This document shows, piece after piece, positions 51,067-63,393 of a stretch of 64,000 bases of DNA; within the stretch, counting starts at the first letter, position 1, and the number at the start of each line of letters is the position of its first letter. The notes beneath the pieces were generated by a model. That model was not told the origin of the DNA. It saw only the letters and a program-made list of their open reading frames with translations, and ran no database searches. The position numbers and the translations under genes are program-made. Origin of the DNA: an uncultured Gammaproteobacteria bacterium (GTDB taxonomy: Bacteria > Patescibacteriota > Microgenomatia > Daviesbacterales > UBA10151); the NCBI GenBank assembly GCA_964405655.1, contig CAYOOO010000006.1, forward strand, positions 3,671 through 67,670, in the 5' to 3' direction.

Positions 51067-52284
51067 ATGCCTTTAGCAGAGCAGCTTGTAGTTCATAGAA
51101 GAAACCTCGTAGATTCAAAACCAGATTTATACGTTCCAATTAATCTTTTTGATCCATTCGGTGAAATTTTAGGAGCCAGAGAAGGTAGGAAAAGATTGCT
51201 TTGGGGTTTTAGAGATGCTGGGGCTGCAGCCGCAGGTCTTCCAGTAATACGAGCCTTGCAGCAAGAAGCAGTTGATGTTTTTATCTTAGCAGATGGTCCT
51301 GCTCGTGATGCTTTAGAGAAAGACCCGCTTTATACAGAGACAAGATTGGTAAAGAATTTAGGTTGGACAATAACTGGACTCGGCCAAGATATAAGCATAT
51401 TAGGCCATGCAGTCAAACCTGATGTAGAACAAATTTTAACTGCTCATGCTAAGTATATAGGGATACCTACAGTTTGGTATGAAGATATGCCACCTTTCTT
51501 AGGCTTTTACAAAAGAGGCTTAGCTGCTGAAGGAAATTTATTTATCCCAGAAAGAATCTTTTGTTTCTCAGAAACTTCAGCTCAGCAAGAAATTGGATAC
51601 ATCCCACAGTTTGTTAGAAGAACAGTAGTAGTGGGAAACCCTGCTTTTGACAGATTTGCAGATATTGATGTAACAGGGATTAGACAGCGGACAAGAACTG
51701 GACTAGGGGTTGAGAGTGATGAGACCTGGTTTGTTTGGATGGCGACAAAAACTAGGGCTACTTTTGAATCATGTAGAGATTTTGTTGAAGGCATAAAAGC
51801 TTTGGATTTAGAACACTACCGTTTTAGTGCCAGAATACATCCAGCTGAAGCTAAAGATCCATTAGTCAAGGCAGAATATGATCAACTTCTTAAAACATTA
51901 GGTCGACATGCACTTGAAACAACTGGCTACTCAACAGATGATGTAGGAACTGCAGCAGATATAGTTGGAGGTGATACATCCACTGCTATTTTTGAGGCAA
52001 CACTAAATGATGTTAGAACTGTCACGCTCCTTATTCCTGAGAATATGGTCTTAAGGGATGAATGGGTAGAAGAACTTCCTCCTGATCCAGCAATTGTTTT
52101 AGATGGTACCAGTCCTGTGGTCAGAAGAAGAGATGATGTTAAAGATGTGTTACTTAAAGTGACTTCGGATAGTGAAACACAAGAAATGTTAAGGCAAAAA
52201 AGACAAGTTTGGAGAAAAGTTGTTGGTGGAGCGACTGAAAGATTCAAAGACAGATTGTTAGAAATTGCTTCTTCTAATAGTTAG
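51067..52284 (+). CDS. Hypothetical GT-B-like protein, candidate divergent UDP-GlcNAc 2-epimerase (NeuC/WecB-like); noticeably higher GC than neighbours
   Basis: 405 aa; 'VVVGNPAFDRF' placed like the WecB/NeuC 'GN-x-x-DA' segment; Ala/Arg-rich composition unlike the rest of the window. Confidence 0.3.
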   Translation: MPLAEQLVVHRRNLVDSKPDLYVPINLFDPFGEILGAREGRKRLLWGFRDAGAAAAGLPVIRALQQEAVDVFILADGPARDALEKDPLYTETRLVKNLGWTITGLGQDISILGHAVKPDVEQILTAHAKYIGIPTVWYEDMPPFLGFYKRGLAAEGNLFIPERIFCFSETSAQQEIGYIPQFVRRTVVVGNPAFDRFADIDVTGIRQRTRTGLGVESDETWFVWMATKTRATFESCRDFVEGIKALDLEHYRFSARIHPAEAKDPLVKAEYDQLLKTLGRHALETTGYSTDDVGTAADIVGGDTSTAIFEATLNDVRTVTLLIPENMVLRDEWVEELPPDPAIVLDGTSPVVRRRDDVKDVLLKVTSDSETQEMLRQKRQVWRKVVGGATERFKDRLLEIASSNS

Positions 52285-53057
52285 ATTTTGATTAGTTTCT
52301 TCTGCAGTAGTAATTCTGCCAGTAAAATATCATTAAGATTATCTATATCTAGCGCATCATCCTTATCCAGCATGACGTATCTGACCCTTTTGCCTGTTAG
52401 CAATCCCTCTTTCATCAAAACATTATATTTGACTGCTATTACATCAACATGGGCAAAAGCTGGAGGAAAAGATTGTCTGGGTGCATTTGAAGGCTCTTTT
52501 AACCCCGTCACTTCTTTGGGAATAAAAGGTTTTAGCTCGTTCCCATCTATCCTCCAAAGCTTATAAGGATGTTTAGGCGCACTTTTAATAGTTCTTGAGG
52601 AGGTTGCAATTGGGTCATCAATCAGCAGTTGAATGCAAGCATCAATTGATTCAGTTTTACAAAAAGGAGTTGTTGGGGGAAGTCTTAAAATAATATCTGC
52701 TTTCCATCCCTCATTTTCCTCAAGCCATTTGGTCGCATGCTGCAGATATGAGATATCATCAGCACTATCGTCTGAAATTTCCTTGGGTCGTAAAAAAGGC
52801 GCTTCAGCTCCATAAAGTTTGGCTATTTTGGCAAATTCTTCTGAATCAGTAGAAACTATGAGACGGCTGACCAATTTAGATCTTTTAGCAGATTCAATAA
52901 TCCAGGCCATCAAAGGTTTACCAGCTAAAGGATAAATATTTTTATAGGGAATGCTTTTTGAACCAGACCTTGCTCCAACTACACCCAAAACTTTCAACTG
53001 CTTATCTGAAAGAAAACTTTGCTTATCTGAATTAGATTTCATAAAGAAGAATTTCAA
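52281..53057 (-). CDS. CMP-nonulosonic acid synthetase family cytidylyltransferase (NeuA/PseF/KdsB-like)
   Basis: 'LGVVGARSGSKSIPYKNIYPLAGKPLMAW' matches the NeuA-family N-terminal motif. Confidence 0.7.
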   Translation of the reverse strand: MKFFFMKSNSDKQSFLSDKQLKVLGVVGARSGSKSIPYKNIYPLAGKPLMAWIIESAKRSKLVSRLIVSTDSEEFAKIAKLYGAEAPFLRPKEISDDSADDISYLQHATKWLEENEGWKADIILRLPPTTPFCKTESIDACIQLLIDDPIATSSRTIKSAPKHPYKLWRIDGNELKPFIPKEVTGLKEPSNAPRQSFPPAFAHVDVIAVKYNVLMKEGLLTGKRVRYVMLDKDDALDIDNLNDILLAELLLQKKLIKI

Positions 53058-53122
53058 GCCCGATAATACTTAAATAATTATCCTTGTGTCAATAGCTATG
53101 AGATTATATAATTCCCCCAGTT

Positions 53123-54214
53123 ATGAGTTCAGCAGAGTTATTTGGGCCAAACTCACATAGTCAATATAAAGTAGGTTGGGTGGAAATTGATAATTCTGTT
53201 AAAGATGAGGTAACAGCCGTTTTGTTGAATTGTTATCTATTTTCAAATGTTTCTCTAGCTAGTATTAAAGAGGTTGATGCTTGGGAAGTCATAAGCAAAA
53301 ATTATCGAGCACAAGTTATTGATGAAAGTGGTGACCGTAGAGATGTTGTACTGCACAAATTTTTAAGATTAAAAGATCCACAAACGATCAGGATATCCGG
53401 AGAGATAATAACTTTTCTACATAGAGAAGGAATAAAAGTACCGGAAATTGTGCGGACTGAAGGGAAAACGGATAGCTTTACTCAATACCAAGAAAATTGT
53501 TATCGAGTTTTTGAGTTTGTTGAAGGCGATCATTTTCGTGGAACCAAATCGGAACTTAAAGATTTTGCAGGCAACCTAGCTGCTTTTCATAAAACCCTGG
53601 AACATGCACCTTATCAGTCAGAACTTGCCTTAAGGCCAGCAGTTTCAGCAGCATGGGATATAGAAGGTTGGAGAGAATTGTTCGGTAGGGCAAGATCTGG
53701 TGAGAGTCCAATAGCTGGTCTGGTTTTATCGAGTAAAGATTTGATATTGGAGCAAGCCCAATTTATTAGTCAAGGTTTATGTCAACCATTTAATTTTAGA
53801 ACCCAAATAATCAGGGGCGATCTTCACCCTCATGACACAATTTATCAGAAAGGGAAACTTAGAGCTTTAGTGGATTTTGATGATATGAGAGTTGGCGAGT
53901 TAATGAGAGATGTTACTACAGCCTGTCATAGATTTGTTAGACAATTTATAGTTTATCAAGGTAGAGATTGGGAGGAGACTCTGGCTTTGGGTTTGGATCT
54001 TTTTGTCAATGAATATCTAAAAGTTAATTTGATATCAGACGCTGAGATTAGTGCAGGAGCTATCTTTATTGCTGATGAGTTATTAAGGAAGATTTATCGG
54101 GATCTTAATAAATATTATTTAGCAGGACAGACTCAATACTTAAGCGGAGGAGAGTTGGAAAAAAGACTTACGTTGCTTCAAGAATCAAAGATTATTAGTC
54201 AATATTTAAGATAA
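53123..54214 (+). CDS. APH-fold (aminoglycoside phosphotransferase/choline-kinase-like) small-molecule kinase, paralog 1
   Basis: 'IIRGDLHPHDTIY' (HxD catalytic loop) and 'VDFDDMRVGELMRDV' (Mg-binding D). Confidence 0.65.
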   Translation: MSSAELFGPNSHSQYKVGWVEIDNSVKDEVTAVLLNCYLFSNVSLASIKEVDAWEVISKNYRAQVIDESGDRRDVVLHKFLRLKDPQTIRISGEIITFLHREGIKVPEIVRTEGKTDSFTQYQENCYRVFEFVEGDHFRGTKSELKDFAGNLAAFHKTLEHAPYQSELALRPAVSAAWDIEGWRELFGRARSGESPIAGLVLSSKDLILEQAQFISQGLCQPFNFRTQIIRGDLHPHDTIYQKGKLRALVDFDDMRVGELMRDVTTACHRFVRQFIVYQGRDWEETLALGLDLFVNEYLKVNLISDAEISAGAIFIADELLRKIYRDLNKYYLAGQTQYLSGGELEKRLTLLQESKIISQYLR

Positions 54215-54244
54215 TTTTTAAAAATTACTTTAAGTTGCAGAAAT

Positions 54245-55327
54245 TCATTTACTGGTTTTTGCTCTGGTGATATCTTTTACTTCCATGTAATCAATCCTAC
54301 CTTCTCTTATAGCCTTTAATGCTAACTCTTTAAATCTGTTTGACCAACTATCCCTCAAACCATCAACAACACCGTAATATAAGGTAGCATTTCCAACTAC
54401 ATAATCAATCAGCAATACCTGTTCTAACCTTTGAGTTACTGAATCTTCCGGATCATAGATACCGCCAGCTTCATGATAGCCCATGAGAAAAGCTTGCTCA
54501 GCTTGTGAAGCTGCGTCACTATGCTGATAAAATAAGCTTCTTCTTAAATAATAAATGTCCAAAGAGGGTAGCCCTGCCTGACAATGTTCCAAGTCAAAAT
54601 AACCACTAGGCTTACCTGTCTCATCAACAAAAAAGTTCATTGAGTGTAAATCTGTTAATATCAACGAAGCTCTAGTCCTATCTCTTAAATCTCTTGCTAA
54701 AGTTGCTAATTCTCCTCTGATATATCTTTGTAAGTCTTCGGCTTCGGAGTTTTCTAAAACTCCTGTTTGATAAGCTCTTTGTAGTTTTACCTGAGATATC
54801 ATCTGAACTCTGTCTGCAAAATTGGAAATATTGTCGGGATGAACTAAATCAGCAGCCAATACATCTCCAAAACTATCAAAACTTACACCGTGAGCTTTGG
54901 CTAAATCCTTACCTAAAAATCCGAATGATCTTAGGAAACCATCTGTTAAGGGACCATTTTGTTTTAGATAGTCACTAAAGTAACCCCCTGGTAACTGCTC
55001 AACCAGCAAAACTGGATGAGGAGTATCTTCATATAAACCATAAACTCTGGGTGTAGGTAAGCCAGCTTTATTTCTAACTAGCTCCATTAAGTCCTTTTCC
55101 CGCCTTAAAGATAATGGTCCGTTAAACTGAAAATCCCTCCTTAGCCCATCTGCAGAAGAGACTAATTGGGGTTTTTCAAATCTGGCAATCATACTTAATT
55201 CTTGGGGGACTGATGTAGTGACACGAAAGATATTGTGAGATCTCCCTTCAGGAATGAAGGTAGCGGTTGATATTTCATATCCGATAGCATTAAGAGCTTG
55301 GATTGCTTGCTGTTCTGAAAGAGACAT
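54245..55327 (-). CDS. APH-fold phosphotransferase-family kinase (divergent)
   Basis: 'LILTDLHSMNFFVDETGKPSGYFDLEHCQAG' catalytic-loop/DFG-like region. Confidence 0.6.
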   Translation of the reverse strand: MSLSEQQAIQALNAIGYEISTATFIPEGRSHNIFRVTTSVPQELSMIARFEKPQLVSSADGLRRDFQFNGPLSLRREKDLMELVRNKAGLPTPRVYGLYEDTPHPVLLVEQLPGGYFSDYLKQNGPLTDGFLRSFGFLGKDLAKAHGVSFDSFGDVLAADLVHPDNISNFADRVQMISQVKLQRAYQTGVLENSEAEDLQRYIRGELATLARDLRDRTRASLILTDLHSMNFFVDETGKPSGYFDLEHCQAGLPSLDIYYLRRSLFYQHSDAASQAEQAFLMGYHEAGGIYDPEDSVTQRLEQVLLIDYVVGNATLYYGVVDGLRDSWSNRFKELALKAIREGRIDYMEVKDITRAKTSK

Positions 55328-55427
55328 ACGGCACCAATTATATACGTAGGTTGCAAATTAAACAATGAAAGCATGAGCCTTTACAACCTCCAGTCATTCC
55401 AATAAAATACCCTAGAATTGTTGTAAT

Positions 55428-56258
55428 ATGCCAGAGAATTATCTTAGGAAGATATTTAACTTGGAAAAAAGGGTAGCAGTTATAACTGGTGGTTTGGGAA
55501 AATTAGGTAGTCAATATGCCGAGGCTTTGGTTAAAACAGGTGCCAGGGTTGCAGTCTTTGATATTATTGATACTCCAAATGATACTTTGAAAAAACTATC
55601 TAAAAAGTTCCCTATTTTGTTTTTAAAAGTTGATATTACTAAGGAGGAAGAAGTTAAAGAAGCTGTTGATCGAGTTGTTAAAAAGTGGGATGTACCAACA
55701 ATTTTAATAAATAATGCTGGTTGGAAAGCCTCACCTAATGAAAATCAAAAAGCTAGTGTTCCTTTTGAAGATTACCCGATTGATACCTGGGATGAGGTTT
55801 TTAAAATCAACACTACAGCTGCGGTAATTTGCAGCAAGATTATTGGAGGTTTGATGATCAAAAGAAAAAAGAAGGGCTCGATTATTAACATCGCCTCCCA
55901 TTATGCTTTAGTTTCTCCTGACCAAAGAGTCTATCAATATAAAGAGAAACAAGGCAAAGGAAAATTTGTTAAAGATGCTTCTTACTCATCATCAAAAGCA
56001 GCCTTAATTTCCTTAACCAGAGACTTAGCTACTCAATGGGCATCTTTTGGTATCCGGGTTAACTCTTTTTCTCCAGGAGGAGTGTTCAACCCAAAAAGCG
56101 ATAAAGAGTTTTTAAAAGAATATACTTTCAGAACACCACTTGGCAGAATGGCCAGTGTAGATGAATATAACGGAGCAATTATTTTCCTGGCTTCTGATGC
56201 TTCCTCTTATATGACAGGGGCAAATTTGGTAATGGATGGGGGTTGGACTGCATGGTAA
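55428..56258 (+). CDS. Short-chain dehydrogenase/reductase (classical SDR)
   Basis: 'VAVITGGLGKLGSQYA' TGxxxGxG; 'YSSSKAA' YxxxK. Confidence 0.8.
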   Translation: MPENYLRKIFNLEKRVAVITGGLGKLGSQYAEALVKTGARVAVFDIIDTPNDTLKKLSKKFPILFLKVDITKEEEVKEAVDRVVKKWDVPTILINNAGWKASPNENQKASVPFEDYPIDTWDEVFKINTTAAVICSKIIGGLMIKRKKKGSIINIASHYALVSPDQRVYQYKEKQGKGKFVKDASYSSSKAALISLTRDLATQWASFGIRVNSFSPGGVFNPKSDKEFLKEYTFRTPLGRMASVDEYNGAIIFLASDASSYMTGANLVMDGGWTAW

Positions 56259-57733
56259 ACAGTAAAAATAATCCCTACCCTAAAAAAATTCCTCACTGGA
56301 TTTCCAACAAGGAAGTTTTTTCAGAAAATAAAAAATTTATTCCAAAATTTAGTCCTGTAACAGGTAAGAAAATAGCAGAAATAACCAGCGGATCCAAAAA
56401 AGATGTCAAAGAAGCAATTACTTTAGCTCAGCTAACTTACAAATCCTGGATGAATAGTTCAATTATGTTCAGAGCTGAGATAATCAAGAAAGCGACCTTT
56501 TATATAGAAGCAAATAAAGAAGAAATTGCCCAAATTCTCTCATTGGAAACTGGCCGTTCTAAAAAGGATGCATTAGGAGAAGTTAGATCTGCAGTTGAAT
56601 ATGGTCTTTACTGGAGTAGTGAGGCAAAGAGATTTTTCGGCGTAACAACTACCAGTTCTAACCCTAATAGGTCAGCCTATATGGTCCGCTCTCCAGTTGG
56701 AGTTTGTGCATTAATTACTCCTTTTAATGGTCCTTTCTCAGGGATGGTTAAAAAAATTTATCCTGCTTTGCTTTGTGGAAATACTGTAATTTTAAAATCT
56801 CATGAGCTAACCCCTTTTACCGCTATCTGGCTGGCAAAAGTTTTAAAGGAGGTGGGGCTAGAAGAAAATATCTTCCAAGTTATCCAAGGGTTAGGTAGTG
56901 AAGCAGGGGCAGCAATTATTGAAGATGACAGAATTGGTCTTATTAGTTTTACTGGGTCAGTAAACACAGGTAGGTACTTACTCAAAGTCGCTGCAGATCG
57001 GATAGGTAAGGTCTGTTTGGAGCTTGGGGGAAAAAACCCACTGGTAGTTTGCGATGATGCAGATTTGGAACATGCAGCTAAGACGACAGTGGCTTCTGCT
57101 TTTATTGAGGCAGGTCAAAGATGCGCTGCAGCCAGCAGAGTTATTATTTTTGATTCTGTATATGAACAGTTTAAAAAACTCTTAATAGAGGAAACATCAA
57201 AACTCAAGATAGGTTCTACAGATGAAGATAAAATTTGTCCTTTAATAAGTCAAAAGAGACTTGACGAGGTACTCGCTATCACTAATCGGGCGGTCAGACA
57301 AGGAGCTAAGGTTTTAATTGGAGGAAAAAGACTTACTGACCCAATTCATAAAGCTGGATATTACATGGAACCAACTATTTTAGAAAGTGTTTCTGCCAAA
57401 GATGAAATCTCTCGGAAAGAAGTTTTTGGCCCGGTTGTTTGTTTATATCAGGTTAAAGATTTTGATCAAGCTGTTGAACTGGCTAATGATTGCGATTTTG
57501 GTTTAACTAGCGCAATTCACACGCAAAGTTTAGATAGAGCCCATGTTTTTACAAAACTTTCTGAAGCTGGAGTGGTTAGGGTTAATGGACCAACTCACGG
57601 CAGTGAAAATCATATGCCTTTTGGCGGAGTCAAACTTTCTGGAAATGGTTTCAGAGAGCCTGGTACAAATGCACTAGATATTTATTCAGAATGGAAGTTT
57701 ATTACTATTGACTACAATCCGAATAAACTGTAG
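56243..57733 (+). CDS. NAD(P)-dependent aldehyde dehydrogenase
   Basis: 'LELGGKNP' Glu active-site motif; 'FTGSVNTG'; catalytic Cys in 'GQRCAAASR'. Confidence 0.8.
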   Translation: MDCMVNSKNNPYPKKIPHWISNKEVFSENKKFIPKFSPVTGKKIAEITSGSKKDVKEAITLAQLTYKSWMNSSIMFRAEIIKKATFYIEANKEEIAQILSLETGRSKKDALGEVRSAVEYGLYWSSEAKRFFGVTTTSSNPNRSAYMVRSPVGVCALITPFNGPFSGMVKKIYPALLCGNTVILKSHELTPFTAIWLAKVLKEVGLEENIFQVIQGLGSEAGAAIIEDDRIGLISFTGSVNTGRYLLKVAADRIGKVCLELGGKNPLVVCDDADLEHAAKTTVASAFIEAGQRCAAASRVIIFDSVYEQFKKLLIEETSKLKIGSTDEDKICPLISQKRLDEVLAITNRAVRQGAKVLIGGKRLTDPIHKAGYYMEPTILESVSAKDEISRKEVFGPVVCLYQVKDFDQAVELANDCDFGLTSAIHTQSLDRAHVFTKLSEAGVVRVNGPTHGSENHMPFGGVKLSGNGFREPGTNALDIYSEWKFITIDYNPNKL

Positions 57734-57751
57734 TATCTAAAAATTGTAACT

Positions 57752-59668
57752 ATGGCAGAAAACGAAAAGGTCTTAACTTATGTTCCTCTGCCTGAGATAA
57801 AAAGAATAAAGATCGGGGTTAAAAACCCAATCAAGCAAGCTGAATTACTCTCAGATATCTTCAGGATCAATACTCTTTATATGATAGAAAAAGCTGGGTC
57901 TGGACACCTGGGAACCAGTTTTAGCTCAATAGATATTGTTACTTGGTTAATGTTGAATGAGCTAAGAAACCCCAATAATCCTGGTAAAAATCCTTCTGAT
58001 ACTTATTTTTCATCAAAGGGTCATGATGTACCAGCTCTCTATTCTATTTTAATGGGGTTGGGACAACTGGACTTTGAAAATATCCATCGATTAAGGAGAC
58101 TAAACGGTTTACCAGGACACCCAGATGTTTCAATACCATCTCTTGTGACCAATACTGGGTCTTTGGGCATGGGTATCTCAACTGCTAGAGGAATAGCTTT
58201 TGTTGATCATTTAAATAAACATCAAGGAAGATTATATGTTTTAACAGGTGATGGTGAGTTGCAGGAAGGGCAAATTTGGGAAAGTTTACAGCCTACTGCA
58301 AATGGTAAATATGATGATATTACTGTGATTGTTGATCATAATAAGATTCAGTCTGATACTTGGGTAGAAAGAGTCAGTTCGTTGGGAAATCTTGAAAAAA
58401 GATTTGCTGCTCATGGTTGGGAAGTAACCAGATGTAATGGACATGATTTTGCGGCTTTGCAAAAAACACTGGCCAGATTAAGAAAAGTTAAAGGGCGTCC
58501 TCAAGTTTTGATAGCAGATACCATCAAGGGCAAAGGAGTCTCATTTATGGAAAGGGTAGAAAGTGATGGTTTATATAAGTTTCATGCTGGTGCGCCAAGT
58601 TACGAACAGTACCAGGCAGCTTTTCAGGAGCTATCAAGTCGGGTTAATGAACGACTAGAATCCCTAAAGCTTAGACCCCTGGAGTTAGAAGAAGTAAGAC
58701 TACCAGCCACTCCTTCAACAGTTAAGAAGTTAGTCCGACTGACCAATGATTATGGTGAGGAAGTGATCGAAATCGGTAAGGATAGGAAAGATTTAATAGT
58801 TTTAGATGCAGATCTGATTAAAAGTTGTGGCTTGATTGGTTTTGCCAAACAGTTTCCTGAAAGATTTATTGAGTGCGGCATAGCTGAACAGGATATGATC
58901 TCAGAGGCAGGAGGAATAGCCTTAAGAGGTGGTCTACCCATTGCTCATTCACTTGCCTGTTTCTTATCAACTAGACCTAATGAACAGATCTATAAACAAG
59001 CCACCGAACAAACAAAAATTATTTATGTAGGTTCTCAAGCAGGGTTACTGCCGGCAGGACCAGGACACTCTCATCAATCGGTTAGAGATATTGCTTGTTT
59101 AGGAGCAGTACCGGGCTTAATTCTTCTAGAACCCTCAAACGGAAAAGAGACTAGAATGGGGCTTCGCTGGGCAGTTTATAGAAACAATCGCAGCACATAT
59201 CTTCGTCTGGTAAGTAACGCAACTGATATTCCCTTTGAACTTCCTAAGAACTATCAATTAAAGGTTGGTAAGGGTGTATTACTTAAAGGAGGTAAAGATG
59301 CCGCAATCCTTTCTTATGGACCAACTATGTTAACAGAGGCTTGGAAGGCAGCGCAGATACTTGCTGAAGATGAAATAAGCTTAGCAGTCATTAATCTACC
59401 TTGGTTAAATAGATTAGATGATAGTTGGTTGAAAAGTGTTGTACGTAAATATCGAACAATTTTTACTCTAGATGATCATTACTTGGAACAGGGTCAAGGA
59501 GCTATGATCGCTACCCACTTAGCCAAACTTGGACTTGTAACCAGTCTAGTTATGTTTGGAGTAGAAGAAATTCCTGCTTGCGGAAGTAATCAGGAAGTGC
59601 TTGAATATCATGGTTTAGATGCTAAATCACTTGCAAAAAAGATTCAAAAAAACCTCAAAAGAAGTTAA
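57752..59668 (+). CDS. Transketolase-family ThDP enzyme (N-terminal TPP/PP domain fused to Pyr and C-terminal domains in one 638-aa chain)
   Basis: 'GSGHLGTSFSSIDIV' ThDP-binding N-terminal motif; 'GDGELQEGQIWES'; C-terminal 'LACFLSTR...YVGSQAGL...GPGHSHQS'. Confidence 0.7.
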   Translation: MAENEKVLTYVPLPEIKRIKIGVKNPIKQAELLSDIFRINTLYMIEKAGSGHLGTSFSSIDIVTWLMLNELRNPNNPGKNPSDTYFSSKGHDVPALYSILMGLGQLDFENIHRLRRLNGLPGHPDVSIPSLVTNTGSLGMGISTARGIAFVDHLNKHQGRLYVLTGDGELQEGQIWESLQPTANGKYDDITVIVDHNKIQSDTWVERVSSLGNLEKRFAAHGWEVTRCNGHDFAALQKTLARLRKVKGRPQVLIADTIKGKGVSFMERVESDGLYKFHAGAPSYEQYQAAFQELSSRVNERLESLKLRPLELEEVRLPATPSTVKKLVRLTNDYGEEVIEIGKDRKDLIVLDADLIKSCGLIGFAKQFPERFIECGIAEQDMISEAGGIALRGGLPIAHSLACFLSTRPNEQIYKQATEQTKIIYVGSQAGLLPAGPGHSHQSVRDIACLGAVPGLILLEPSNGKETRMGLRWAVYRNNRSTYLRLVSNATDIPFELPKNYQLKVGKGVLLKGGKDAAILSYGPTMLTEAWKAAQILAEDEISLAVINLPWLNRLDDSWLKSVVRKYRTIFTLDDHYLEQGQGAMIATHLAKLGLVTSLVMFGVEEIPACGSNQEVLEYHGLDAKSLAKKIQKNLKRS

Positions 59669-60308
59669 AGCAATTGTTTTTGATTTTGATGGAGTATTGG
59701 TTGACTCCCTCGAATTTAAGAGAGAAGCTTACTTTAAGTTATTTCCTACAAAGTACTCTCAAGTTGTAACAAAAACTCTTAAAGAAATGGATGGACGCAT
59801 AAGATCGGAAATAATTTCTACGATTCTTATAAAAACTGGCTTACCGAAAAAAGATCTTAAAGACAAACTAGATAAGTATATTAAAAAATATAACTATCTT
59901 GTTGAAGAGCAGATAATCAAAAAGGGTCTTATTGAAGGAGTTAAAAAGACTTTAAAAGATCTTTCAAAGACTGGTAATATTTATCTCAATTCATCAACCC
60001 CACAAGATTCTTTAGAAAGATGCATTAATGGATTAAAAATCAGGAACTTATTTAAAGAAATTTACGGAAAAACTAATAATAGAGGGAAAAAAGACAATTT
60101 GTCACGAATACTTGAGAATTCTAACTACTCGCTAAATGAGGTTGTGGTTGTAGGTGATAGTATAGATGACTTCTTAATTGCTAAAGAATTAAGCTGTCTG
60201 TTTATTGGTATTTCTAATCAATTTAGTAAATGGGAAGAAATTTCTTTTCCAATATTAAACAATATTTCAAAAATCCAAAGTTTTCTTAAAAATCCAGATG
60301 GCGATTAA
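59619..60308 (+). CDS. HAD-superfamily hydrolase/phosphatase
   Basis: Motif I 'AIVFDFDGVLVDS'; motif IV 'VVVGDSIDD'. Overlaps transketolase 3' end by 50 nt, so start uncertain. Confidence 0.65.
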   Translation: MLNHLQKRFKKTSKEVKAIVFDFDGVLVDSLEFKREAYFKLFPTKYSQVVTKTLKEMDGRIRSEIISTILIKTGLPKKDLKDKLDKYIKKYNYLVEEQIIKKGLIEGVKKTLKDLSKTGNIYLNSSTPQDSLERCINGLKIRNLFKEIYGKTNNRGKKDNLSRILENSNYSLNEVVVVGDSIDDFLIAKELSCLFIGISNQFSKWEEISFPILNNISKIQSFLKNPDGD

Positions 60309-61371
60309 AGTTTTTGCACCTAATATTCACAGCAAATATAAGATTAATTGGAAAAAAATACTACCTCAAGCGGAAGAGGAGATCAGCAACTTATTTCTCA
60401 AAAATTATAACTTTGACCGGGTTTTAATGATTGAAGAAGTAGATGAATGGGAACGGCTTAGTAATAACTTCAAAATTTTGGCTACTAAAAACAATCATCA
60501 GGTCACTGTTCTTCTAAGAAAACACATCCAACTTAAAGATTTAAAGAGCATTAAAGCATTAGACAAAATATTGCTATATCTACAAAGTCGGGGATTAAAT
60601 GTACCAAAAGTTATTCCTATTAAAAAGAATAAATTATTTTTCAAAAACCAGGGCTACTATTTTCAGCTTTATGAATTCATTCAAGGTGCTCATTTTAAAG
60701 GAACAACAAAACAACTGATAAAGATTGCAGGCTTCATTGCTAAATTACATAAGATTTTTGAAAAAGTTCCTTTTACAAAGGAGATTTCTAAGAAGCCATC
60801 TGTTCTACCACCATGGGATTTTAAAATATGGCAATCTCTTTTACAGATTTCCAAAAATAGAAAAGAAAAACTTGATAAAGTTATTCAAAGTAATGAATTT
60901 TTTATTTTGAGAGAGTGCCAAGTTGTTAAGGATAAAATTAGTTCAATGTCTCAACCCAAAGTTCAAGTAATCAGAGGAGATCTCCACCCACATGATACTA
61001 TCTTTGTAGGCAATGATCTTAATGCCCTTATTGATTTTGAAGGAGTGAGAGTAGGGGAGTTAATTAGAGATGTTGGCAATGCTTGCCACAGATTTGTTAG
61101 ACAATATGTTGTCTATCAAAAAAATGATTGGAGGTTAACCTTACCAAAAGGAATAAAAATTTTTTTATCTAACTACGTTAAGTTTAATCCAATTTCACCA
61201 GAAGAAATTAAGTTGATACCTATTTTTATAAAAGATGAAATATTAAGGAAATTACATAAGGATATTAGCCTATACTACTATAACGATTACCCAGCAAATT
61301 TAGAAGGAGGAGAACTTGAGAAAAAACTAACTCTTCTTAAAGAAGCCTCGTTAATAGAAAAATATATTTAA
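60298..61371 (+). CDS. APH-fold small-molecule kinase, paralog 2 (close relative of 53123..54214, low-GC version)
   Basis: 'VIRGDLHPHDTIF', 'IDFEGVRVGELIRDVGNACHRFVRQYVVYQ' near-identical motifs to paralog 1. Confidence 0.65.
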   Translation: MAIKVFAPNIHSKYKINWKKILPQAEEEISNLFLKNYNFDRVLMIEEVDEWERLSNNFKILATKNNHQVTVLLRKHIQLKDLKSIKALDKILLYLQSRGLNVPKVIPIKKNKLFFKNQGYYFQLYEFIQGAHFKGTTKQLIKIAGFIAKLHKIFEKVPFTKEISKKPSVLPPWDFKIWQSLLQISKNRKEKLDKVIQSNEFFILRECQVVKDKISSMSQPKVQVIRGDLHPHDTIFVGNDLNALIDFEGVRVGELIRDVGNACHRFVRQYVVYQKNDWRLTLPKGIKIFLSNYVKFNPISPEEIKLIPIFIKDEILRKLHKDISLYYYNDYPANLEGGELEKKLTLLKEASLIEKYI

Positions 61372-61388: not shown

Positions 61389-62354
61389 TTAGAGCTTTCG
61401 CTCATACTCATCAGGGTATTTACCAAGCTGAACTAAAAAGATTAAATCTAAGAGTTTTCTTATAACATGTTCTCCTCTCTTAGCAGGAACAACTAGACCT
61501 ACTTCTTTAAGTACTTGTGGTTGAGCATCTGAAGGGCAAGCTGACAACCCAACCACTCTCATCAAAGGTAGGTCGTTAACATCATCACCAATGTAACAAA
61601 CCTCCTCTAAATCTAACCCCCAATCTTTTGCCATCTGCTTAGCTGCAGCTACCTTATCTAAAATCCCATGAACATAAGTTAATTTAAGTTTTTCAGCTCG
61701 ATGAGCTATTATAGGTACGGTTTCTCTGCTAATAATTCCTACATGGCGACCTAAGCCCTGCCAAGGTAGAAGAGCTAGGCTATCAATCCTTGAAAATGCG
61801 ACTGATTCAACTCCTTCTTGGTTGACCCAAACTTTTCCATCAGTCATTGTTCCATCTACATCCATAATCAATCCTTTGATTCTTTTAATTTTTTCATTTA
61901 ACTCTTCAGGTAACCTCTCCTCATCCCAGTAGTCTGCTAAGTACCTCTTTGTTGTTAGATAAATTAGTGGTTCTCCTCTTCTCGGAATGGTTTGGTGAGC
62001 CATACCAGCGGGGATAGTCAAAAAATCTCCAGTCCCAACCCGCTGTTTTTGAGAGTTGTTAATCTCTGTACCCCTCCATTCAAATAGTGATCTAAAAGTC
62101 CGATCAACTACATCACTGCCAGTCTCAATAGTCCCTATCCCTCTAACAACATAAACAATATCAGCAGCCATCTCGTGAATTTCAACTTTAGTAGGTTGAG
62201 TAGCTCTGTTTAGTGACACCAAAGGTCTTGAAAAGCTATCCCTTTGTAGAACGAGAGTTTTTCCTCCAGAGGCCTCTAAACTCTTAACTAAATCAGATAT
62301 AAACTCGACTGTAGCCATTCCTTCGAGCAGATTTTGCGATTTCGATATGTTCAA
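61389..62354 (-). CDS. Two-domain protein: N-terminal cupin-like domain + C-terminal KdsC-type HAD-IIIA phosphatase (nonulosonate/KDO-type sugar-phosphate phosphatase)
   Basis: 'IKGLIMDVDGTMTDGKVWV...' (KdsC 'DVDGVLTDG' motif), 'YIGDDVNDLPLM'. Start overlaps neuB-like 3' end by 62 nt (internal Met available). Confidence 0.65.
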   Translation of the reverse strand: MNISKSQNLLEGMATVEFISDLVKSLEASGGKTLVLQRDSFSRPLVSLNRATQPTKVEIHEMAADIVYVVRGIGTIETGSDVVDRTFRSLFEWRGTEINNSQKQRVGTGDFLTIPAGMAHQTIPRRGEPLIYLTTKRYLADYWDEERLPEELNEKIKRIKGLIMDVDGTMTDGKVWVNQEGVESVAFSRIDSLALLPWQGLGRHVGIISRETVPIIAHRAEKLKLTYVHGILDKVAAAKQMAKDWGLDLEEVCYIGDDVNDLPLMRVVGLSACPSDAQPQVLKEVGLVVPAKRGEHVIRKLLDLIFLVQLGKYPDEYERKL

Positions 62355-63393
62355 GAGTAATTGCCTGATCTACCTTAACTTCTTTAATCAATCTTTTACC
62401 CAATACTTTATCTATCATATGTGGTGGTAATCCCTCACAAGGTGATTTTATAGCCAAGTCATTTCTAGTCAAGATATGACCGGCATTTAATTTCTTAGTA
62501 GCAACAATACATTTACCCATCTTATACTTCATTGCAGATTCGCCTTCGTAAAACTTCTTAGTTCCATTACCTAAAGCTAGTCTAATCCTCCTTAGATCTC
62601 TGATGACTTTTCTTAAGCCTTCAAACTCTAAAGAGAAAGCATGATCAGAACCTTTCATGGCCCTGTTTAAAGTAAAATGTTTTTCAATAATTCTGGCGCC
62701 TAAGGCATAGGCGACAGGATCAACAGATATTCCATTATAGTGGTTTGAGAAACCAATTACTGTATCGGGAAAGATCCTTCTGTAAGTTTCAATAACTCTT
62801 AAATCAAGATGCTCGGCCATACAAGGATACATAGAAGTGCACTGCAAAAGGGCGATATTTTTATTAATTTTGTAAACTGCGTCAAATGCTCTTTTGACGT
62901 CGTCTAAGGTAGCAGTTCCAGTCGAAACTATCATTGGTTTTTTAAATCTTGCAATATAGGTAAGCAGGGGAATACTGTGAATATCAGAAGAGGCTGTTTT
63001 AAAACAACTTACTCCAATTTCATTTAAGAAATCAGCGCTTTTGTAATCCCAAGCAGTAGCAAAGAAGATCATGCCCAGCTTTTTAGCATATCTTTTAAGT
63101 TGCAGATATTCTCTTTTATTAAATTCTAAAGCTTGTCGATGTAGGCCATAAGTAGGCGCAAATGCATGCTCGGAATTATAGGTCGAGTTAAAAAAAGAGC
63201 GGGTAAACAGGATTCGATTGTGGCGTTTTTGTATTTTGACTGAGTCTGCTCCGCAAAAGCTTGCTAAATCGAATAATCTCTTACAGGTTTCTATATCACC
63301 CTGATGGTTTTGTCCGATCTCAGCTATAAAGAAACAGTCGCTTTCGTCGTTGATTACCTTGCTTTCGATTATTAGTTGTCTTTTTTTGGCCAT
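62293..63393 (-). CDS. neuB: N-acylneuraminate (nonulosonic acid) synthase family, PEP-condensing, with C-terminal SAF/antifreeze-like domain
   Basis: 'FFIAEIGQNHQGDIETCKRLFDLASFCGADSVKIQKRH' NeuB N-terminus; C-terminal 'KCIVATKKLNAGHILTRNDLAIKSP' SAF domain. Confidence 0.75.
   Translation of the reverse strand: MAKKRQLIIESKVINDESDCFFIAEIGQNHQGDIETCKRLFDLASFCGADSVKIQKRHNRILFTRSFFNSTYNSEHAFAPTYGLHRQALEFNKREYLQLKRYAKKLGMIFFATAWDYKSADFLNEIGVSCFKTASSDIHSIPLLTYIARFKKPMIVSTGTATLDDVKRAFDAVYKINKNIALLQCTSMYPCMAEHLDLRVIETYRRIFPDTVIGFSNHYNGISVDPVAYALGARIIEKHFTLNRAMKGSDHAFSLEFEGLRKVIRDLRRIRLALGNGTKKFYEGESAMKYKMGKCIVATKKLNAGHILTRNDLAIKSPCEGLPPHMIDKVLGKRLIKEVKVDQAITLEHIEIAKSARRNGYSRVYI

What the first reader, a model, noticed from the sequence alone, without database searches (positions are those of the whole stretch)
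53123..61371. Three APH-fold kinase paralogs flanking the sugar-activation genes
53123..54214 and 60298..61371 share near-identical catalytic motifs (IRGDLHPHDTI…, DF(D/E)…RVGEL(M/I)RDV…CHRFVRQ). 54245..55327 is a divergent third copy on the opposite strand. APH-fold enzymes include sugar kinases (N-acetylhexosamine 1-kinase NahK), choline/ethanolamine kinases (LicA), and antibiotic phosphotransferases. Their embedding among nucleotidyltransferase, NeuB, SDR, ALDH, transketolase and HAD genes argues for a substrate-activation role (anomeric or 6-kinase for a salvage or 9-phosphate pathway, or phosphocholine-type decoration) rather than resistance.
Basis: inference. Interest (0 to 1): 0.5.

Follow-up and report, generated by a model that had tools for sequence, protein, structure and literature searches.

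The report
Kinases inside a sialic-acid-like sugar pathway
Three antibiotic-kinase-fold genes sit in a gene cassette that builds a sialic-acid-like sugar in a probable candidate-phyla bacterium. They appear to be dedicated pathway kinases, not resistance genes, and they point to a still unknown sugar-tailoring route.

Summary
All three ORFs are real and match Pfam APH (PF01636). K1 (53123-54214) and K3 (60298-61371) are true paralogs at 38% identity and share the quoted motifs. K2 (54245-55327, minus strand) belongs to a separate APH-fold family, not a recent copy.

None is orthologous to a characterised kinase:
- K1/K3 are nearest to type II homoserine kinase and CotS/YtaA (about 18% identity).
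- K2 resembles macrolide and aminoglycoside kinases only at fold level (about 15% identity).

The K1/K3 family is rare: 221 cluster representatives among 1.84 billion. It lies beside NeuB in 14 of 15 usable loci, mostly Patescibacteria. It nearly always accompanies a KduD/gluconate-5-dehydrogenase-like SDR and a HAD phosphatase, and in two relatives it is fused to the HAD domain.

Variable partners are either an aminotransferase or a transketolase plus aldehyde dehydrogenase. The transketolase lacks the usual sugar-phosphate clamp.

K2-like and K1/K3-like genes are neighbours in five loci.

Best reading: these are pathway kinases that add a transient phosphate during synthesis or tailoring of a nonulosonic acid. 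The substrate is unresolved. An anomeric-kinase role, a phosphocholine role and antibiotic resistance are not supported.

The parts
53123..54214 (+). K1: APH-fold small-molecule kinase and divergent paralog of K3. It stands alone, divergent from the cytidylyltransferase gene and convergent with K2.
   Evidence: Pfam APH 61.8 bits. 38% identical to K3. The best non-self relative is only 43% identical. All family-invariant residues are kept. In sister locus L024 only a 63-residue C-terminal relic remains.
54245..55327 (-). K2: APH-fold kinase of a second, unrelated family, transcribed divergently from the SDR operon.
   Evidence: Pfam APH 54.8 bits. No BLASTP similarity to K1. The family keeps D226, N231, D245 and E77 in all 37 aligned sequences. 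The AF2 model has pLDDT 93.7. Best folds are Mph(2')/APH(2'') at 12-16% identity. An 82% identical ortholog occupies the same position in L024.
60298..61371 (+). K3: APH-fold kinase and last gene of the SDR-ALDH-TK-HAD-kinase operon. Its start overlaps the HAD gene by 11 nt.
   Evidence: Pfam APH 47.5 bits. AF2 model pLDDT 92.8. Nearest folds are HSK-II 2ppq, YtaA, AmiN, APH(9) and NahK. Relatives P0003 and P0008 are single HAD_2-APH polypeptides.
59619..60308 (+). HAD_2 (subfamily IA) phosphatase-type enzyme, the partner of K3.
   Evidence: Pfam HAD_2 73.9 bits. The DFDG motif is visible in the translation. It is fused to the kinase in P0003 and P0008.
55428..56258 (+). SDR oxidoreductase of the sugar-acid type, the most constant partner of the kinase.
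   Evidence: Pfam adh_short_C2 160 bits. Best NCBIfam hits are gluconate 5-dehydrogenase, GolD/DthD and KduD types. PDB hits include gluconate 5-DH and 2-deoxy-D-gluconate 3-DH. It is 45-90% identical across 14 kinase loci. In L029 it is fused to CTP_transf_3.
56243..57733 (+). Aldehyde dehydrogenase, which always accompanies the transketolase.
   Evidence: Pfam Aldedh 486 bits. Best NCBIfam hits are alpha-ketoglutaric semialdehyde and 2,5-dioxovalerate dehydrogenases, below their cut-offs. It co-occurs with the TK in 7 loci.
57752..59668 (+). Full-length transketolase of a subfamily that lacks the canonical sugar-phosphate clamp.
   Evidence: All three TK Pfam domains are present. The best PDB match is human TK. 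Catalytic and ThDP residues are kept. Human H416 becomes Q, D424 becomes P and R474 becomes S, and R318 falls in a gap. The pattern holds in all 7 cassette TKs.
61389..62354 (-). Fusion of a small metal-type cupin (N-terminal) with a KdsC/KDN-9-phosphate-phosphatase-like HAD-IIIA domain (C-terminal).
   Evidence: NCBIfam KDN-9-P phosphatase 108 bits, KdsC family 101 bits. The cupin keeps the E-x-H...H motif across homologs. It has weak DUF386/YhcH-like hits. The cupin is a separate gene in L005, L008, L009 and L015.
62293..63393 (-). NeuB-family ulosonic acid synthase.
   Evidence: NCBIfam NeuB_NnaB 279.5 bits (below the 399.65 cut-off) and PseI 226 bits. Precomputed Pfam NeuB+SAF. PDB hits are SpsE, PseI and NeuB.
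52281..53057 (-). CTP_transf_3 cytidylyltransferase, the presumed CMP-ulosonate synthetase.
   Evidence: Pfam CTP_transf_3 69.3 bits. NCBIfam PseF 122.5 bits, below the 205.7 cut-off. 94% identical in L024.
51067..52284 (+). Unknown 405-aa protein, a candidate nonulosonic acid transferase (weak evidence).
   Evidence: No Pfam hit. Weak NCBIfam hit to the BFO_1060 glycosyltransferase family: E 6e-6, 25.6 bits against a cut-off of 200. BFO_1060 is one of the Tannerella candidate NulO transferases (PMC5420450).
49610..51007 (-). Unknown 465-aa protein that travels with the cassette, a candidate glycosyltransferase.
   Evidence: No Pfam or NCBIfam hit. Homologs occur in L009 (three copies), L017, L018, L023 and L024.

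Best explanation
K1 and K3 are paralogous members of a rare, uncharacterised clade of type-II-homoserine-kinase/CotS-like small-molecule kinases. This clade is a fixed part of a NeuB-centred cassette for making a modified nonulosonic (sialic-acid-like) sugar, found mainly in Patescibacteria. K2 belongs to a second, unrelated APH-fold kinase family that has repeatedly been recruited next to it.

Mechanism I commit to: the kinases use ATP to place a transient phosphate on a free small-molecule intermediate of this pathway. The phosphorylated form is processed by the ever-present KduD/gluconate-5-dehydrogenase-like SDR. In different cassettes the next steps use either an aminotransferase or the transketolase plus aldehyde dehydrogenase pair. 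A HAD phosphatase then removes the phosphate before or around CMP activation. Here that phosphatase is HAD_2 (59619-60308), and in other loci it is a KdsC-like enzyme.

Most likely substrate (about 0.35): the free ulosonic acid made by NeuB, or its oxidised derivative. That would make this a second phosphorylation cycle, distinct from the NeuB/KdsC cycle.

Next most likely (about 0.25): the hexose precursor, phosphorylated at O-6 to feed a 9-phosphate-forming NeuB, as in animals.

What is shown: fold, intact catalytic residues, family rarity, synteny and gene fusions. What is inferred: the substrate, the position phosphorylated and the order of steps.
For: Fold and likely activity:
- All three match Pfam APH.
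- Both AF2 models are confident, with pLDDT 92.8 and 93.7.
- Family alignments conserve the catalytic Asp, the metal-binding DF(D/E) Asp and the beta-3 Lys.

Pathway link for K1/K3:
- Only 221 cluster representatives score E<=1e-30 among 1.84 billion proteins.
- Named genomes carrying the family are Saccharibacteria, Niyogibacteria, Yanofskybacteria and Uhrbacteria MAGs, plus two 'Gammaproteobacteria' MAGs.
- NeuB lies within the locus in 14 of 15 loci with usable flanks. The SDR is present in 14 of 15 and usually adjacent. A HAD phosphatase is present in at least 12.

A phosphate that is added and later removed:
- P0003 and P0008 are HAD_2-kinase fusions in the same SDR-ALDH-TK-[HAD-kinase]-cupin-NeuB order.
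- In L009, L013, L014 and L016 the kinase is followed directly by a KdsC-like phosphatase.

Action after NeuB:
- The SDR family is fused to the CTP_transf_3 cytidylyltransferase in L029. A DegT aminotransferase is fused to it in L032. Both fusions lie just downstream of a K2-like kinase.
- Five loci carry two HAD phosphatases, one by NeuB and one by the kinase: the window, L024, L009, L014 and L018.
- The SDR resembles KduD and gluconate-5-dehydrogenase. The ALDH resembles alpha-ketoglutarate-semialdehyde dehydrogenase. Both are sugar-acid enzymes.
- The cassette transketolases lack the sugar-phosphate-binding residues.

K2 as a partner:
- An 82% ortholog sits at the same position in L024.
- K2-like genes lie next to NeuB-type loci in 9 of 55 long metagenome loci, mostly among the closer relatives.
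- They are direct neighbours of K1/K3-family genes in L031, L068 and L033.

Operon structure: SDR/ALDH, TK/HAD and HAD/K3 overlap by 16, 50 and 11 nt.
Against: - No substrate was tested, and none can be read from the sequence. Every family-specific score is far below its curated cut-off.
- The closest solved structures share only 12-18% identity.
- The catalytic loop of K1/K3 reads RGDLHPHD, not the usual HxDxxxxN. The wider family mostly has IHxDLHPHN. The effect on activity is unknown.
- K1 has decayed to a relic in the sister locus L024, so at least one kinase is dispensable.
- Distant K2 relatives sit in unrelated contexts: a DPANN-type archaeal contig, and a lyase/ABC-transporter module. 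K2's role here rests on fewer loci.
- KdsC-type phosphatases next to NeuB fit the simpler animal-like scheme equally well.
- The transketolase residue roles come from my memory of the human, yeast and E. coli enzyme literature, not from a tool. The R318 position falls in an alignment gap.
- Nearly all loci are metagenome contigs from uncultured organisms, so no glycan chemistry is available.
Confidence: 0.6

Rival explanations
1. Animal-like 9-phosphate route. K3 (and K1) phosphorylate a free hexose or hexosamine such as mannose or ManNAc at O-6. NeuB condenses the 6-phosphate with PEP to give a nonulosonate 9-phosphate. The KdsC-like or HAD_2 phosphatase removes the phosphate, and the cytidylyltransferase activates the sugar. 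SDR, TK and ALDH tailor it separately.
For: - NeuB, kinase and KdsC-like phosphatase are contiguous in L009, L016 and L013.
- The phosphatase domain beside NeuB scores best against KDN-9-P phosphatase and KdsC.
- A HAD-kinase fusion could bracket the synthase step.
- HAD_2 is the subfamily type of the animal Neu5Ac-9-P phosphatase (my own knowledge), though the CTE7 hit is weak.
Against: - The kinase's tightest partner is the SDR, not NeuB. That SDR is fused to the CMP-transferase in L029.
- Five loci carry two phosphatases, which this scheme leaves redundant.
- Mannose 6-phosphate is a central metabolite, so a Kdn-type route needs no dedicated kinase (established knowledge of the Bacteroides Kdn pathway).
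- No hydrolysing 2-epimerase (NeuC) that would supply free ManNAc is present in the window.
Confidence: 0.25
2. Stable decoration. One or more of the kinases phosphorylate the finished nonulosonic acid or another sugar of the glycan, as Kdo kinase KdkA and heptose kinase WaaP do in LPS. The phosphate stays on the polymer.
For: - KdkA and WaaP belong to the same protein-kinase-like superfamily (established knowledge).
- The window is a very large glycan assembly locus.
- K1 and K2 lie outside the SDR-to-K3 operon.
Against: - The family is constantly coupled to small-molecule HAD phosphatases, including covalent fusions.
- No similarity to the Kdo or WaaY kinase families was reported by Pfam or NCBIfam.
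- No membrane association is evident in the models.
Confidence: 0.08
3. Side-chain supply. The kinases, SDR, TK, ALDH and HAD act on a small hydroxy acid or polyol (glycerate, glycolate or tetrose type). The product becomes an acyl or phospho substituent of the nonulosonic acid, comparable to the N-glyceroyl or N-glycolyl groups of Tannerella Pse/Leg.
For: - The closest characterised relative, type II homoserine kinase, acts on a small hydroxy amino acid.
- In L025 a K2-like kinase lies between an SDR and a phosphoglycerate-dehydrogenase-like enzyme.
- Transketolases carry a glycolaldehyde unit (established knowledge).
- The origin of N-glyceroyl groups on NulOs is unknown (PMC5378307).
Against: - The window has no aminotransferase or amino-sugar genes that would give an N-acylation site, and no acyl-activating enzyme or acyltransferase.
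- The SDR-cytidylyltransferase fusion points to the sugar itself.
Confidence: 0.1
4. The kinases are antibiotic-resistance or housekeeping kinases (APH, Mph or homoserine kinase) that merely happen to lie in the locus.
For: - All three match Pfam APH.
- K2's top fold matches are macrolide 2'-phosphotransferases.
- K3's top match is a homoserine kinase.
Against: - Identities are 12-18% and scores lie far below the equivalog cut-offs, for example HSK 50 bits against 271.
- Synteny with NeuB, SDR and HAD is conserved across phyla, and there are gene fusions.
- No threonine-pathway or resistance context is present.
Confidence: 0.03

Closest known systems
Type II homoserine kinase (ThrB2; PDB 2ppq) and the CotS/YtaA spore-coat kinase group
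   Same: This is the best sequence-profile and fold match for K1/K3, with the same APH-type bilobal fold, catalytic Asp and DFx metal site.
   Different: - Only about 18% identity, and 50 bits against a 271-bit equivalog cut-off.
- Family-specific N-terminal PNNHS...W motif and C-terminal ACHRFVRQ motif.
- The catalytic loop is RGDLHPHD in K1/K3.
- The genomic context is NeuB, SDR and HAD, not threonine synthesis or sporulation.
Animal sialic acid route: ManNAc kinase (GNE), Neu5Ac-9-P synthase and Neu5Ac-9-P phosphatase; and the Bacteroides KDN-9-P synthase/phosphatase pair
   Same: The logic of kinase, then PEP-condensing synthase, then HAD phosphatase, then CMP activation. A KdsC/KDN-9-P-phosphatase-like domain lies beside NeuB.
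   Different: - The animal kinase has a ROK/hexokinase-type fold, not APH (established knowledge).
- Known bacterial de novo routes to Neu5Ac, Leg, Pse and Kdn use no dedicated kinase (my own knowledge).
- This cassette adds an SDR, a TK, an ALDH and a second phosphatase.
Kdo8N pathway of Shewanella (KdnB dehydrogenase plus KdnA aminotransferase acting on free Kdo)
   Same: A free ulosonic acid is tailored by oxidation and then transamination before CMP activation. This matches the SDR plus aminotransferase versions of the cassette.
   Different: - KdnB is a metal-dependent alcohol dehydrogenase, not an SDR.
- That pathway has no kinase, phosphatase, transketolase or ALDH.
- The comparison rests on my own knowledge, not on a tool result.
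KduD/KdgK logic of 2-keto-3-deoxygluconate metabolism, and the apiose pathway (dehydrogenase, kinase, transketolase)
   Same: An SDR oxidises the carbon next to the terminal CH2OH of a sugar acid, a kinase acts on the same molecule, and in the apiose route a specialised transketolase cleaves the resulting ketol (established knowledge). The SDR here is KduD/gluconate-5-DH-like.
   Different: - Those are catabolic pathways using PfkB-type or other kinases.
- This setting is biosynthetic, with NeuB, a CMP-transferase and glycosyltransferases.
- The kinase is APH-fold.
NahK/AmgK anomeric sugar kinases and LicA choline kinase (APH-fold activation kinases)
   Same: The same fold. NahK appears among the K3 fold matches at TM about 0.65 and 12-13% identity.
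   Different: - The profile E-value to NahK is only 0.11.
- No sugar-1-phosphate nucleotidyltransferase, LicC or LicD partner is in the cassette or the window.
Macrolide 2'-phosphotransferases and APH(2'')/APH(3')
   Same: These are the top fold matches for K2, with a weak partial sequence-profile match to APH(3').
   Different: - 12-16% identity and TM 0.5-0.58.
- K2's close relatives sit in NulO loci, and distant ones in a lyase/ABC-transporter module.
- There is no resistance context.

Membership tests
APH / protein-kinase-like phosphotransferase superfamily (Pfam PF01636) | Significant match to the family model above the gathering score | tested here: met
   K1 61.8, K2 54.8 and K3 47.5 bits against a 23.2 cut-off.
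APH / protein-kinase-like phosphotransferase superfamily (Pfam PF01636) | Bilobal kinase fold | tested here: met
   AF2 models have pLDDT 92.8 (K3) and 93.7 (K2). Hundreds of APH-fold PDB matches have probability 1.00.
APH / protein-kinase-like phosphotransferase superfamily (Pfam PF01636) | Catalytic loop HxDxxxxN, a metal-binding Asp (DFG-like) and a beta-3 Lys | tested here: inconclusive
   The catalytic Asp and the DF(D/E) Asp are present in all three. In K1/K3 the loop is RGDLHPHD (His to Arg, Asn to Asp), whereas the wider family consensus is IHxDLHPHN. K2 has LTDLHSMN, with D226, N231 and D245 invariant, and the beta-3 position is K or R across its family. Activity is plausible but untested.
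Type II homoserine kinase (NCBIfam PRK05231 / TIGR00938 equivalogs) | Score above the equivalog cut-off | tested here: not met
   K3 50.2 bits and K1 29.1 bits against 271. TIGR00938 gives 35.6 against 255.9.
CotS/YtaA spore coat kinases (TIGR02906) | Score above the subfamily cut-off | tested here: not met
   K3 44.8 and K1 25.4 bits against 172.7.
Anomeric sugar 1-kinases (NahK/AmgK type) | Sequence relatedness, plus a partner sugar-1-phosphate nucleotidyltransferase | tested here: not met
   Family profile to NahK gives E 0.11-0.14. The only conserved transferase partner is CTP_transf_3. The NTP_transferase at 25032-25775 belongs to a separate heptose module with its own GHMP kinase.
LicA-type choline/ethanolamine kinase system | Choline-kinase relatedness, plus LicC cytidylyltransferase and a LicD transferase nearby | tested here: not met
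   No choline-kinase hit at E<=1 with the family profile. By fold, the choline kinase match ranks only 22nd. No LicB, LicC or LicD Pfam family appears among the window ORFs scanned. The rest of the genome could not be checked.
Aminoglycoside / macrolide resistance phosphotransferases | Orthology to a characterised APH or Mph with conserved antibiotic-binding residues | tested here: not met
   K2 family profile: APH(3') E 1e-3 over 68 residues only. By fold, Mph(2') matches at 15% identity and TM 0.58. For K1/K3, APH entries score E 4e-4 or weaker. Antibiotic-binding residues were not compared one by one.
9-phosphate type sialic acid/Kdn pathway (kinase or sugar-6-P supply, synthase, phosphatase, CMP synthetase) | NeuB-family synthase and CMP-ulosonate synthetase present | tested here: met
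   NeuB_NnaB 279.5 bits and precomputed Pfam NeuB+SAF. CTP_transf_3 69.3 bits, PseF-like 122.5 bits. Both NCBIfam scores are below their equivalog cut-offs, so the exact sugar is unknown.
9-phosphate type sialic acid/Kdn pathway (kinase or sugar-6-P supply, synthase, phosphatase, CMP synthetase) | Dedicated ulosonate 8-/9-phosphate phosphatase | tested here: inconclusive
   The C-terminal domain of 61389-62354 scores 108.2 bits for KDN-9-P phosphatase (cut-off 180) and 101.2 for the KdsC subfamily (cut-off 106.95). The L009 homolog passes the KdsC subfamily cut-off at 126.7 bits.
9-phosphate type sialic acid/Kdn pathway (kinase or sugar-6-P supply, synthase, phosphatase, CMP synthetase) | The synthase uses a phosphorylated aldose and the kinase makes it | not testable with these tools
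   No 9-phosphate-forming synthase appeared among the solved structures matched, so there was no reference to compare against. Enzyme assays are needed.
Canonical transketolase (pentose phosphate pathway) | ThDP-binding and catalytic His residues, plus an Arg/Arg/His/Asp clamp for the sugar phosphate | tested here: not met
   Human H37, H77, H110, H258, D155, N185 and E366 are conserved. H416 becomes Q/L/G, D424 becomes P and R474 becomes S in all 7 cassette TKs. R318 lies in a gap. Residue roles come from my own knowledge of the TK literature.

The most novel reading that the evidence does not exclude
The SDR-ALDH-TK-HAD-kinase operon may be a side-chain-trimming machine for a NeuB-made nonulosonic acid.

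Proposed steps:
1. The kinase and HAD phosphatase gate the process.
2. The KduD-like SDR oxidises C8 to a ketol.
3. A phosphate-blind transketolase clips off C8-C9 as a glycolaldehyde unit.
4. The ALDH oxidises the new C7 aldehyde.

The product would be a CMP-activatable 3-deoxy-heptulosaric (Dha-like, C7H10O8) acid. In cassettes where an aminotransferase replaces the TK and ALDH, the same keto intermediate would instead give an amino-nonulosonic acid.

This would be the first transketolase acting on an ulosonic acid and the first kinase in bacterial nonulosonic acid biosynthesis.
Probability: 0.12. Interest if true: 0.8.

Novelty: new variant of a known kind. Interest (0 to 1): 0.55.

Why it matters
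Nonulosonic acids (sialic, legionaminic, pseudaminic acids and Kdn) cap the surfaces of many microbes and shape recognition by hosts and phages. The enzymes that diversify them are mostly unknown, as PMC5378307 notes.

As far as I know, no bacterial biosynthetic route to these sugars uses a dedicated kinase, a transketolase or an aldehyde dehydrogenase. Four full-text searches found no description of such a cassette.

The recurring module has four fixed parts: a kinase, an SDR, a HAD phosphatase and one variable pair. That pair is either an aminotransferase or a transketolase with an aldehyde dehydrogenase. It occurs mainly in uncultured Patescibacteria, whose surface chemistry is essentially unexplored.

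If the module makes a new sugar, it gives glycobiologists a defined set of about ten genes to express. It would also add a new substrate class for two large enzyme superfamilies, and a marker for this surface chemistry in metagenomes.

If the kinases merely supply mannose or ManNAc 6-phosphate, the result is a modest one: non-orthologous replacement of the animal ManNAc kinase.

Tried and rejected
1. Single-sequence PDB searches with K1 and K2 gave only chance hits. Family profiles and fold searches were needed.

2. The word-indexed homolog search suggested only 9-18 relatives of K1. The exhaustive profile search showed this was an underestimate: 221 at E<=1e-30. The family is rare but not tiny.

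3. K2 as a recent diverged copy of K1/K3 was rejected.

4. Four literature searches combining NeuB or nonulosonic with kinase, transketolase, ALDH or Patescibacteria returned nothing. Searches on KDN-9-phosphate and heptulosaric acid gave no relevant pathway. The Bacteroides Kdn paper is not held. The 2026 sialic acid review has no bacterial NeuB content.

5. I looked for a solved 9-phosphate-forming synthase to compare with NeuB. None appeared among the hits.

6. I tested whether the cassettes with DegT aminotransferases make 9-deoxy sugars of the Leg/Pse type, which would exclude 6- or 9-phosphorylation. In L009 the extra genes are RmlB-, RmlC- and RfbH-like, and in L016 they are LegC-, GalE- and RmlD-like at sub-cut-off scores. 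They more likely serve another sugar, so there is no exclusion.

7. The promoter and terminator scan found no more sites than shuffled sequence. I use it only to note a promoter-like site in the 100-nt K2/SDR divergent spacer.

Full report
**Observation**

The three ORFs are at the stated coordinates. All match Pfam APH (PF01636) well above the 23.2-bit cut-off: K1 (53123-54214, +) 61.8 bits, K2 (54245-55327, -) 54.8 bits, K3 (60298-61371, +) 47.5 bits.

K1 and K3 align over their full length at 38% identity (E 4e-98) and share the quoted motifs (IRGDLHPHDTI; DF(D/E)..RVGEL(M/I)RDV..ACHRFVRQ).

K2 is a different matter:
- BLASTP finds nothing between K1 and K2.
- Profile-profile comparison of the two families gives 79.5% probability at 16% identity.
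- Neither family HMM detects members of the other.

So there are two paralogs plus one member of a second APH-fold family.

- CTP_transf_3 cytidylyltransferase (52281-53057, -)
- SDR (55428-56258)
- ALDH (56243-57733)
- a full-length transketolase (57752-59668)
- HAD_2 (59619-60308)
- a cupin fused to a KdsC/KDN-9-P-phosphatase-like domain (61389-62354, -)
- NeuB (62293-63393, -)

SDR, ALDH, TK, HAD and K3 form one co-directional block in which three of the four junctions overlap (SDR/ALDH, TK/HAD, HAD/K3), with an 18-nt gap at ALDH/TK. K2 is divergent from it across 100 nt. K1 is convergent with K2 (30-nt gap) and divergent from the cytidylyltransferase.

**Setting**

The whole 64-kb window is a glycan assembly locus. 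It holds many GT2 and GT4 genes, about nine PMT_2-type GT-C paralogs, a Wzx-like flippase, methyltransferases, an AsnB-like amidotransferase and a heptose-type module.

The ORFs scanned (100-120 aa or more) contain no aminotransferase, no NeuC-type epimerase and no LicB, LicC or LicD family.

The same sequence occurs in several Logan assemblies and on a 75-kb NCBI contig, without names. The named genomes holding the closest kinase loci are Patescibacteria MAGs. With 33% GC and this gene content, a candidate-phyla bacterium is the likely source. That is an inference.

**What the kinases are related to**

K1/K3:
- NCBIfam gives only weak, sub-threshold hits to type II homoserine kinase (50 bits against a 271 cut-off) and CotS.
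- A 17-sequence family profile finds Agrobacterium homoserine kinase 2ppq (E 1.4e-11) and YtaA (2.8e-9). Antibiotic kinases score E 4e-4 or worse, NahK scores 0.11, and no choline kinase appears.
- The K3 AlphaFold model is confident (pLDDT 92.8). Its best solved neighbours are 2ppq (TM 0.66/0.75, 18% identity), YtaA, amicoumacin kinase, APH(9), YihE and NahK.

K2:
- The model has pLDDT 93.7.
- It matches macrolide 2'-phosphotransferases and APH(2'') best, but only at 12-16% identity and TM 0.5-0.58.
- Its family profile gives just a partial APH(3') match at E 1e-3.

Catalytic residues are present in all three. K1/K3 have an unusual loop, RGDLHPHD, where the wider family mostly reads IHxDLHPHN.

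**Family size and distribution**

The word-indexed search found 9-18 relatives of K1. The exhaustive profile search found 221 cluster representatives at E<=1e-30 and 1503 at E<=1e-10, among 1.84 billion. The family is rare but real.

**Conserved context of K1/K3**

I collected 15 independent loci with usable flanks: the window, L005, L008, L009, L013, L014, a 32-kb JGI contig, L016-L021, L023 and L024. I compared them using precomputed Pfam, tblastn with the window proteins, and clustering.

- NeuB is present in 14 of the 15.
- The same SDR (45-90% identical, more conserved than the kinase itself) is present in 14 of the 15 loci (one of those 15, L008, is cut off just upstream), and it usually lies next to the kinase.
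- A HAD phosphatase is present in at least 12.
- Two relatives (P0003, P0008) are single HAD_2-kinase polypeptides in the order SDR-ALDH-TK-[HAD-kinase]-cupin-NeuB.
- In L009, L013, L014 and L016 a KdsC-like phosphatase directly follows the kinase.
- The variable part is either TK plus ALDH or an aminotransferase. TK and ALDH occur together in 7 loci. The aminotransferase is DegT-type in L013 and L014, and class III in L019, L020 and the JGI contig.

The fixed core is therefore kinase, SDR, HAD phosphatase, NeuB and a CMP-transferase.

**Context of K2**

- L024 is a sister locus with the same cassette: CMP-transferase 94%, SDR 90%, TK 86%, ALDH 83%, K2 82%, K3 71%, NeuB 69%, cupin-KdsC 61%, HAD 58%.
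- In L024, K1 survives only as a 63-residue C-terminal relic in the K2/CMP-transferase spacer. K1 is therefore dispensable there.
- Among 55 long metagenome loci with K2 relatives, 9 have NeuB nearby, mostly the closer relatives.
- K2-like genes are direct neighbours of K1/K3-family genes in L031 (216 bits to the K1/K3 profile), L068 (205 bits) and L033 (71 bits).
- More distant K2 relatives lie elsewhere. One is on an archaeal-type contig. Many sit with a YheO-type regulator, a beta-elimination lyase, an RPE-like enzyme, an Opp-type ABC transporter and RidA.
- K2's family is thus broader, with one branch recruited to nonulosonic acid loci.

**Clues to where in the pathway they act**

(a) In L029 the SDR family is fused to the CTP_transf_3 cytidylyltransferase. 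In L032 a DegT aminotransferase is fused to it. Both fusions lie just after a K2-like kinase and an ApbA-type reductase. This places the SDR and aminotransferase chemistry at the ulosonic acid or CMP-sugar stage.

(b) Five loci carry two phosphatases, one by NeuB and one by the kinase: the window, L024, L009, L014 and L018. This suggests two separate phosphorylation cycles.

(c) The SDR resembles gluconate 5-dehydrogenase and KduD. The ALDH resembles alpha-ketoglutarate-semialdehyde dehydrogenase. Both are sugar-acid enzymes, although the scores are below the cut-offs.

(d) All seven cassette transketolases keep the ThDP and catalytic histidine residues. They replace human H416 with Q/L/G, D424 with P and R474 with S, and R318 falls in a gap. 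From my knowledge of the human, yeast and E. coli enzymes, these residues clamp the sugar phosphate and the acceptor hydroxyl. This transketolase probably does not use ordinary sugar phosphates.

(e) The cupin shows weak, repeated similarity to DUF386/YhcH (E 0.04-0.15). YhcH opens the ring of N-acetylneuraminate (PMC8141875). This is only a hint.

**Explanation**

I conclude with about 0.6 confidence that these are dedicated pathway kinases. They install a transient phosphate on a small-molecule intermediate of nonulosonic acid synthesis or tailoring, and a HAD phosphatase removes it.

Within that reading:
- I favour a kinase acting after NeuB on the free ulosonic acid or its oxidised form (about 0.35).
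- The animal-like scheme ranks second (about 0.25). In it, a hexose 6-kinase feeds a 9-phosphate-forming NeuB.
- Stable phosphate decoration (0.08), supply of a small hydroxy-acid substituent (0.10) and resistance or housekeeping roles (0.03) are less likely.
- An anomeric-kinase role and a phosphocholine role are not supported. The only conserved nucleotidyltransferase is of the CMP-ulosonate type, and no Lic genes are present.

The most novel reading not excluded is oxidative trimming of the sugar's side chain by the SDR, then the transketolase, then the ALDH. This would give a Dha-like heptulosaric acid (probability about 0.12).

**Novelty**

The fold and the general chemistry are known. 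New to my knowledge are two things: the recurrent use of one or two APH-fold kinase families, and a phosphate-blind transketolase plus ALDH, inside NeuB cassettes. Four full-text searches found no description of this.

I rate it a new variant of a known kind. It is a good lead for enzymology, but no substrate is established.

Noticed in passing
window 57752-59668 (also L005, L008, L017, L018, L023, L024): The cassette transketolases form a subfamily. They keep the ThDP and catalytic His residues but lose the canonical sugar-phosphate clamp: human H416 becomes Q/L/G, D424 becomes P, R474 becomes S, and R318 falls in a gap. They share the motif AGLLPAGPGHSHQSV and always travel with the ALDH.
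   Followed up: partly
L024 11142-11327 (spacer between the K2 ortholog and the cytidylyltransferase): A 63-residue relic matches the C-terminus of K1 at 56% identity. This shows that K1 was lost in the sister locus while K2 and K3 were kept.
   Followed up: yes
window 59619-61371 versus 51067-59668 and 61389-63393: HAD_2 and K3 have 29-30% GC. Flanking cassette genes have 36-40%. HAD_2, K3, cupin-KdsC and NeuB are 58-71% identical to L024. The cytidylyltransferase, K2, SDR, ALDH and TK are 82-94% identical. This looks like a mosaic history or unequal constraint.
   Followed up: partly
L029 10124-11689 and L032 10119-12110: Single polypeptides fuse a CTP_transf_3 cytidylyltransferase to the cassette-type SDR (L029) or to a DegT aminotransferase (L032). 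Each lies downstream of a K2-like kinase and an ApbA-type reductase.
   Followed up: partly
L013 11738-13669, L019 11972-13867, L020 11926-13827; JGI contig: NeuB is fused to a xylose-isomerase-like TIM barrel (AP_endonuc_2) in three loci. It is fused to the cytidylyltransferase in a fourth.
   Followed up: no
window 49610-51007 (-) and 51067-52284 (+): Two proteins have no Pfam match. The 465-aa one has homologs in five other cassette loci (three copies in L009, and part of a 925-aa ORF in L017). The 405-aa one weakly resembles the BFO_1060 family of candidate nonulosonic acid transferases from Tannerella.
   Followed up: partly
window 2414-3973, 14964-19968, 27430-33975, 35867-37015: About nine PMT_2/YfhO-type GT-C membrane glycosyltransferase paralogs, several in tandem arrays. 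That is an unusually large number for one locus.
   Followed up: no
window 22442-27386: A heptose-type nucleotide-sugar module: GHMP kinase, SIS isomerase, an unknown minus-strand gene, NTP_transferase, a small HAD phosphatase and an epimerase. A similar small SIS isomerase lies directly beside NeuB in L005 and L018.
   Followed up: no
window 61905-62354 (cupin part) and homologs in L005, L008, L009, L015, L024: A small cupin with a conserved E-x-H...H metal motif is fused to the KdsC-like phosphatase here and in L024, and is free-standing elsewhere. It has weak hits to DUF386/YhcH, the sialic acid ring-opening anomerase family. L014 carries a true DUF386 gene beside its cytidylyltransferase.
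   Followed up: partly
L034, L040, L042, L012 and about 25 other metagenome loci: Distant K2 relatives (32-36% identity), several from human-gut assemblies, sit in a different conserved module. It has a YheO-type regulator, a beta-elimination lyase, an RPE-like enzyme, an Opp-type ABC transporter and RidA. That looks like a kinase-plus-lyase catabolic system.
   Followed up: partly
L014 10117-14075: The kinase cassette in L014 is followed by ATP sulfurylase (fused to pyruvate-kinase-like and PUA domains), APS kinase and a sulfotransferase. This suggests a sulfated glycan.
   Followed up: no
window 12227-14050: An asparagine-synthase-type glutamine amidotransferase lies inside the glycan locus. 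It could amidate a sugar carboxylate or make an acetamidino group.
   Followed up: no
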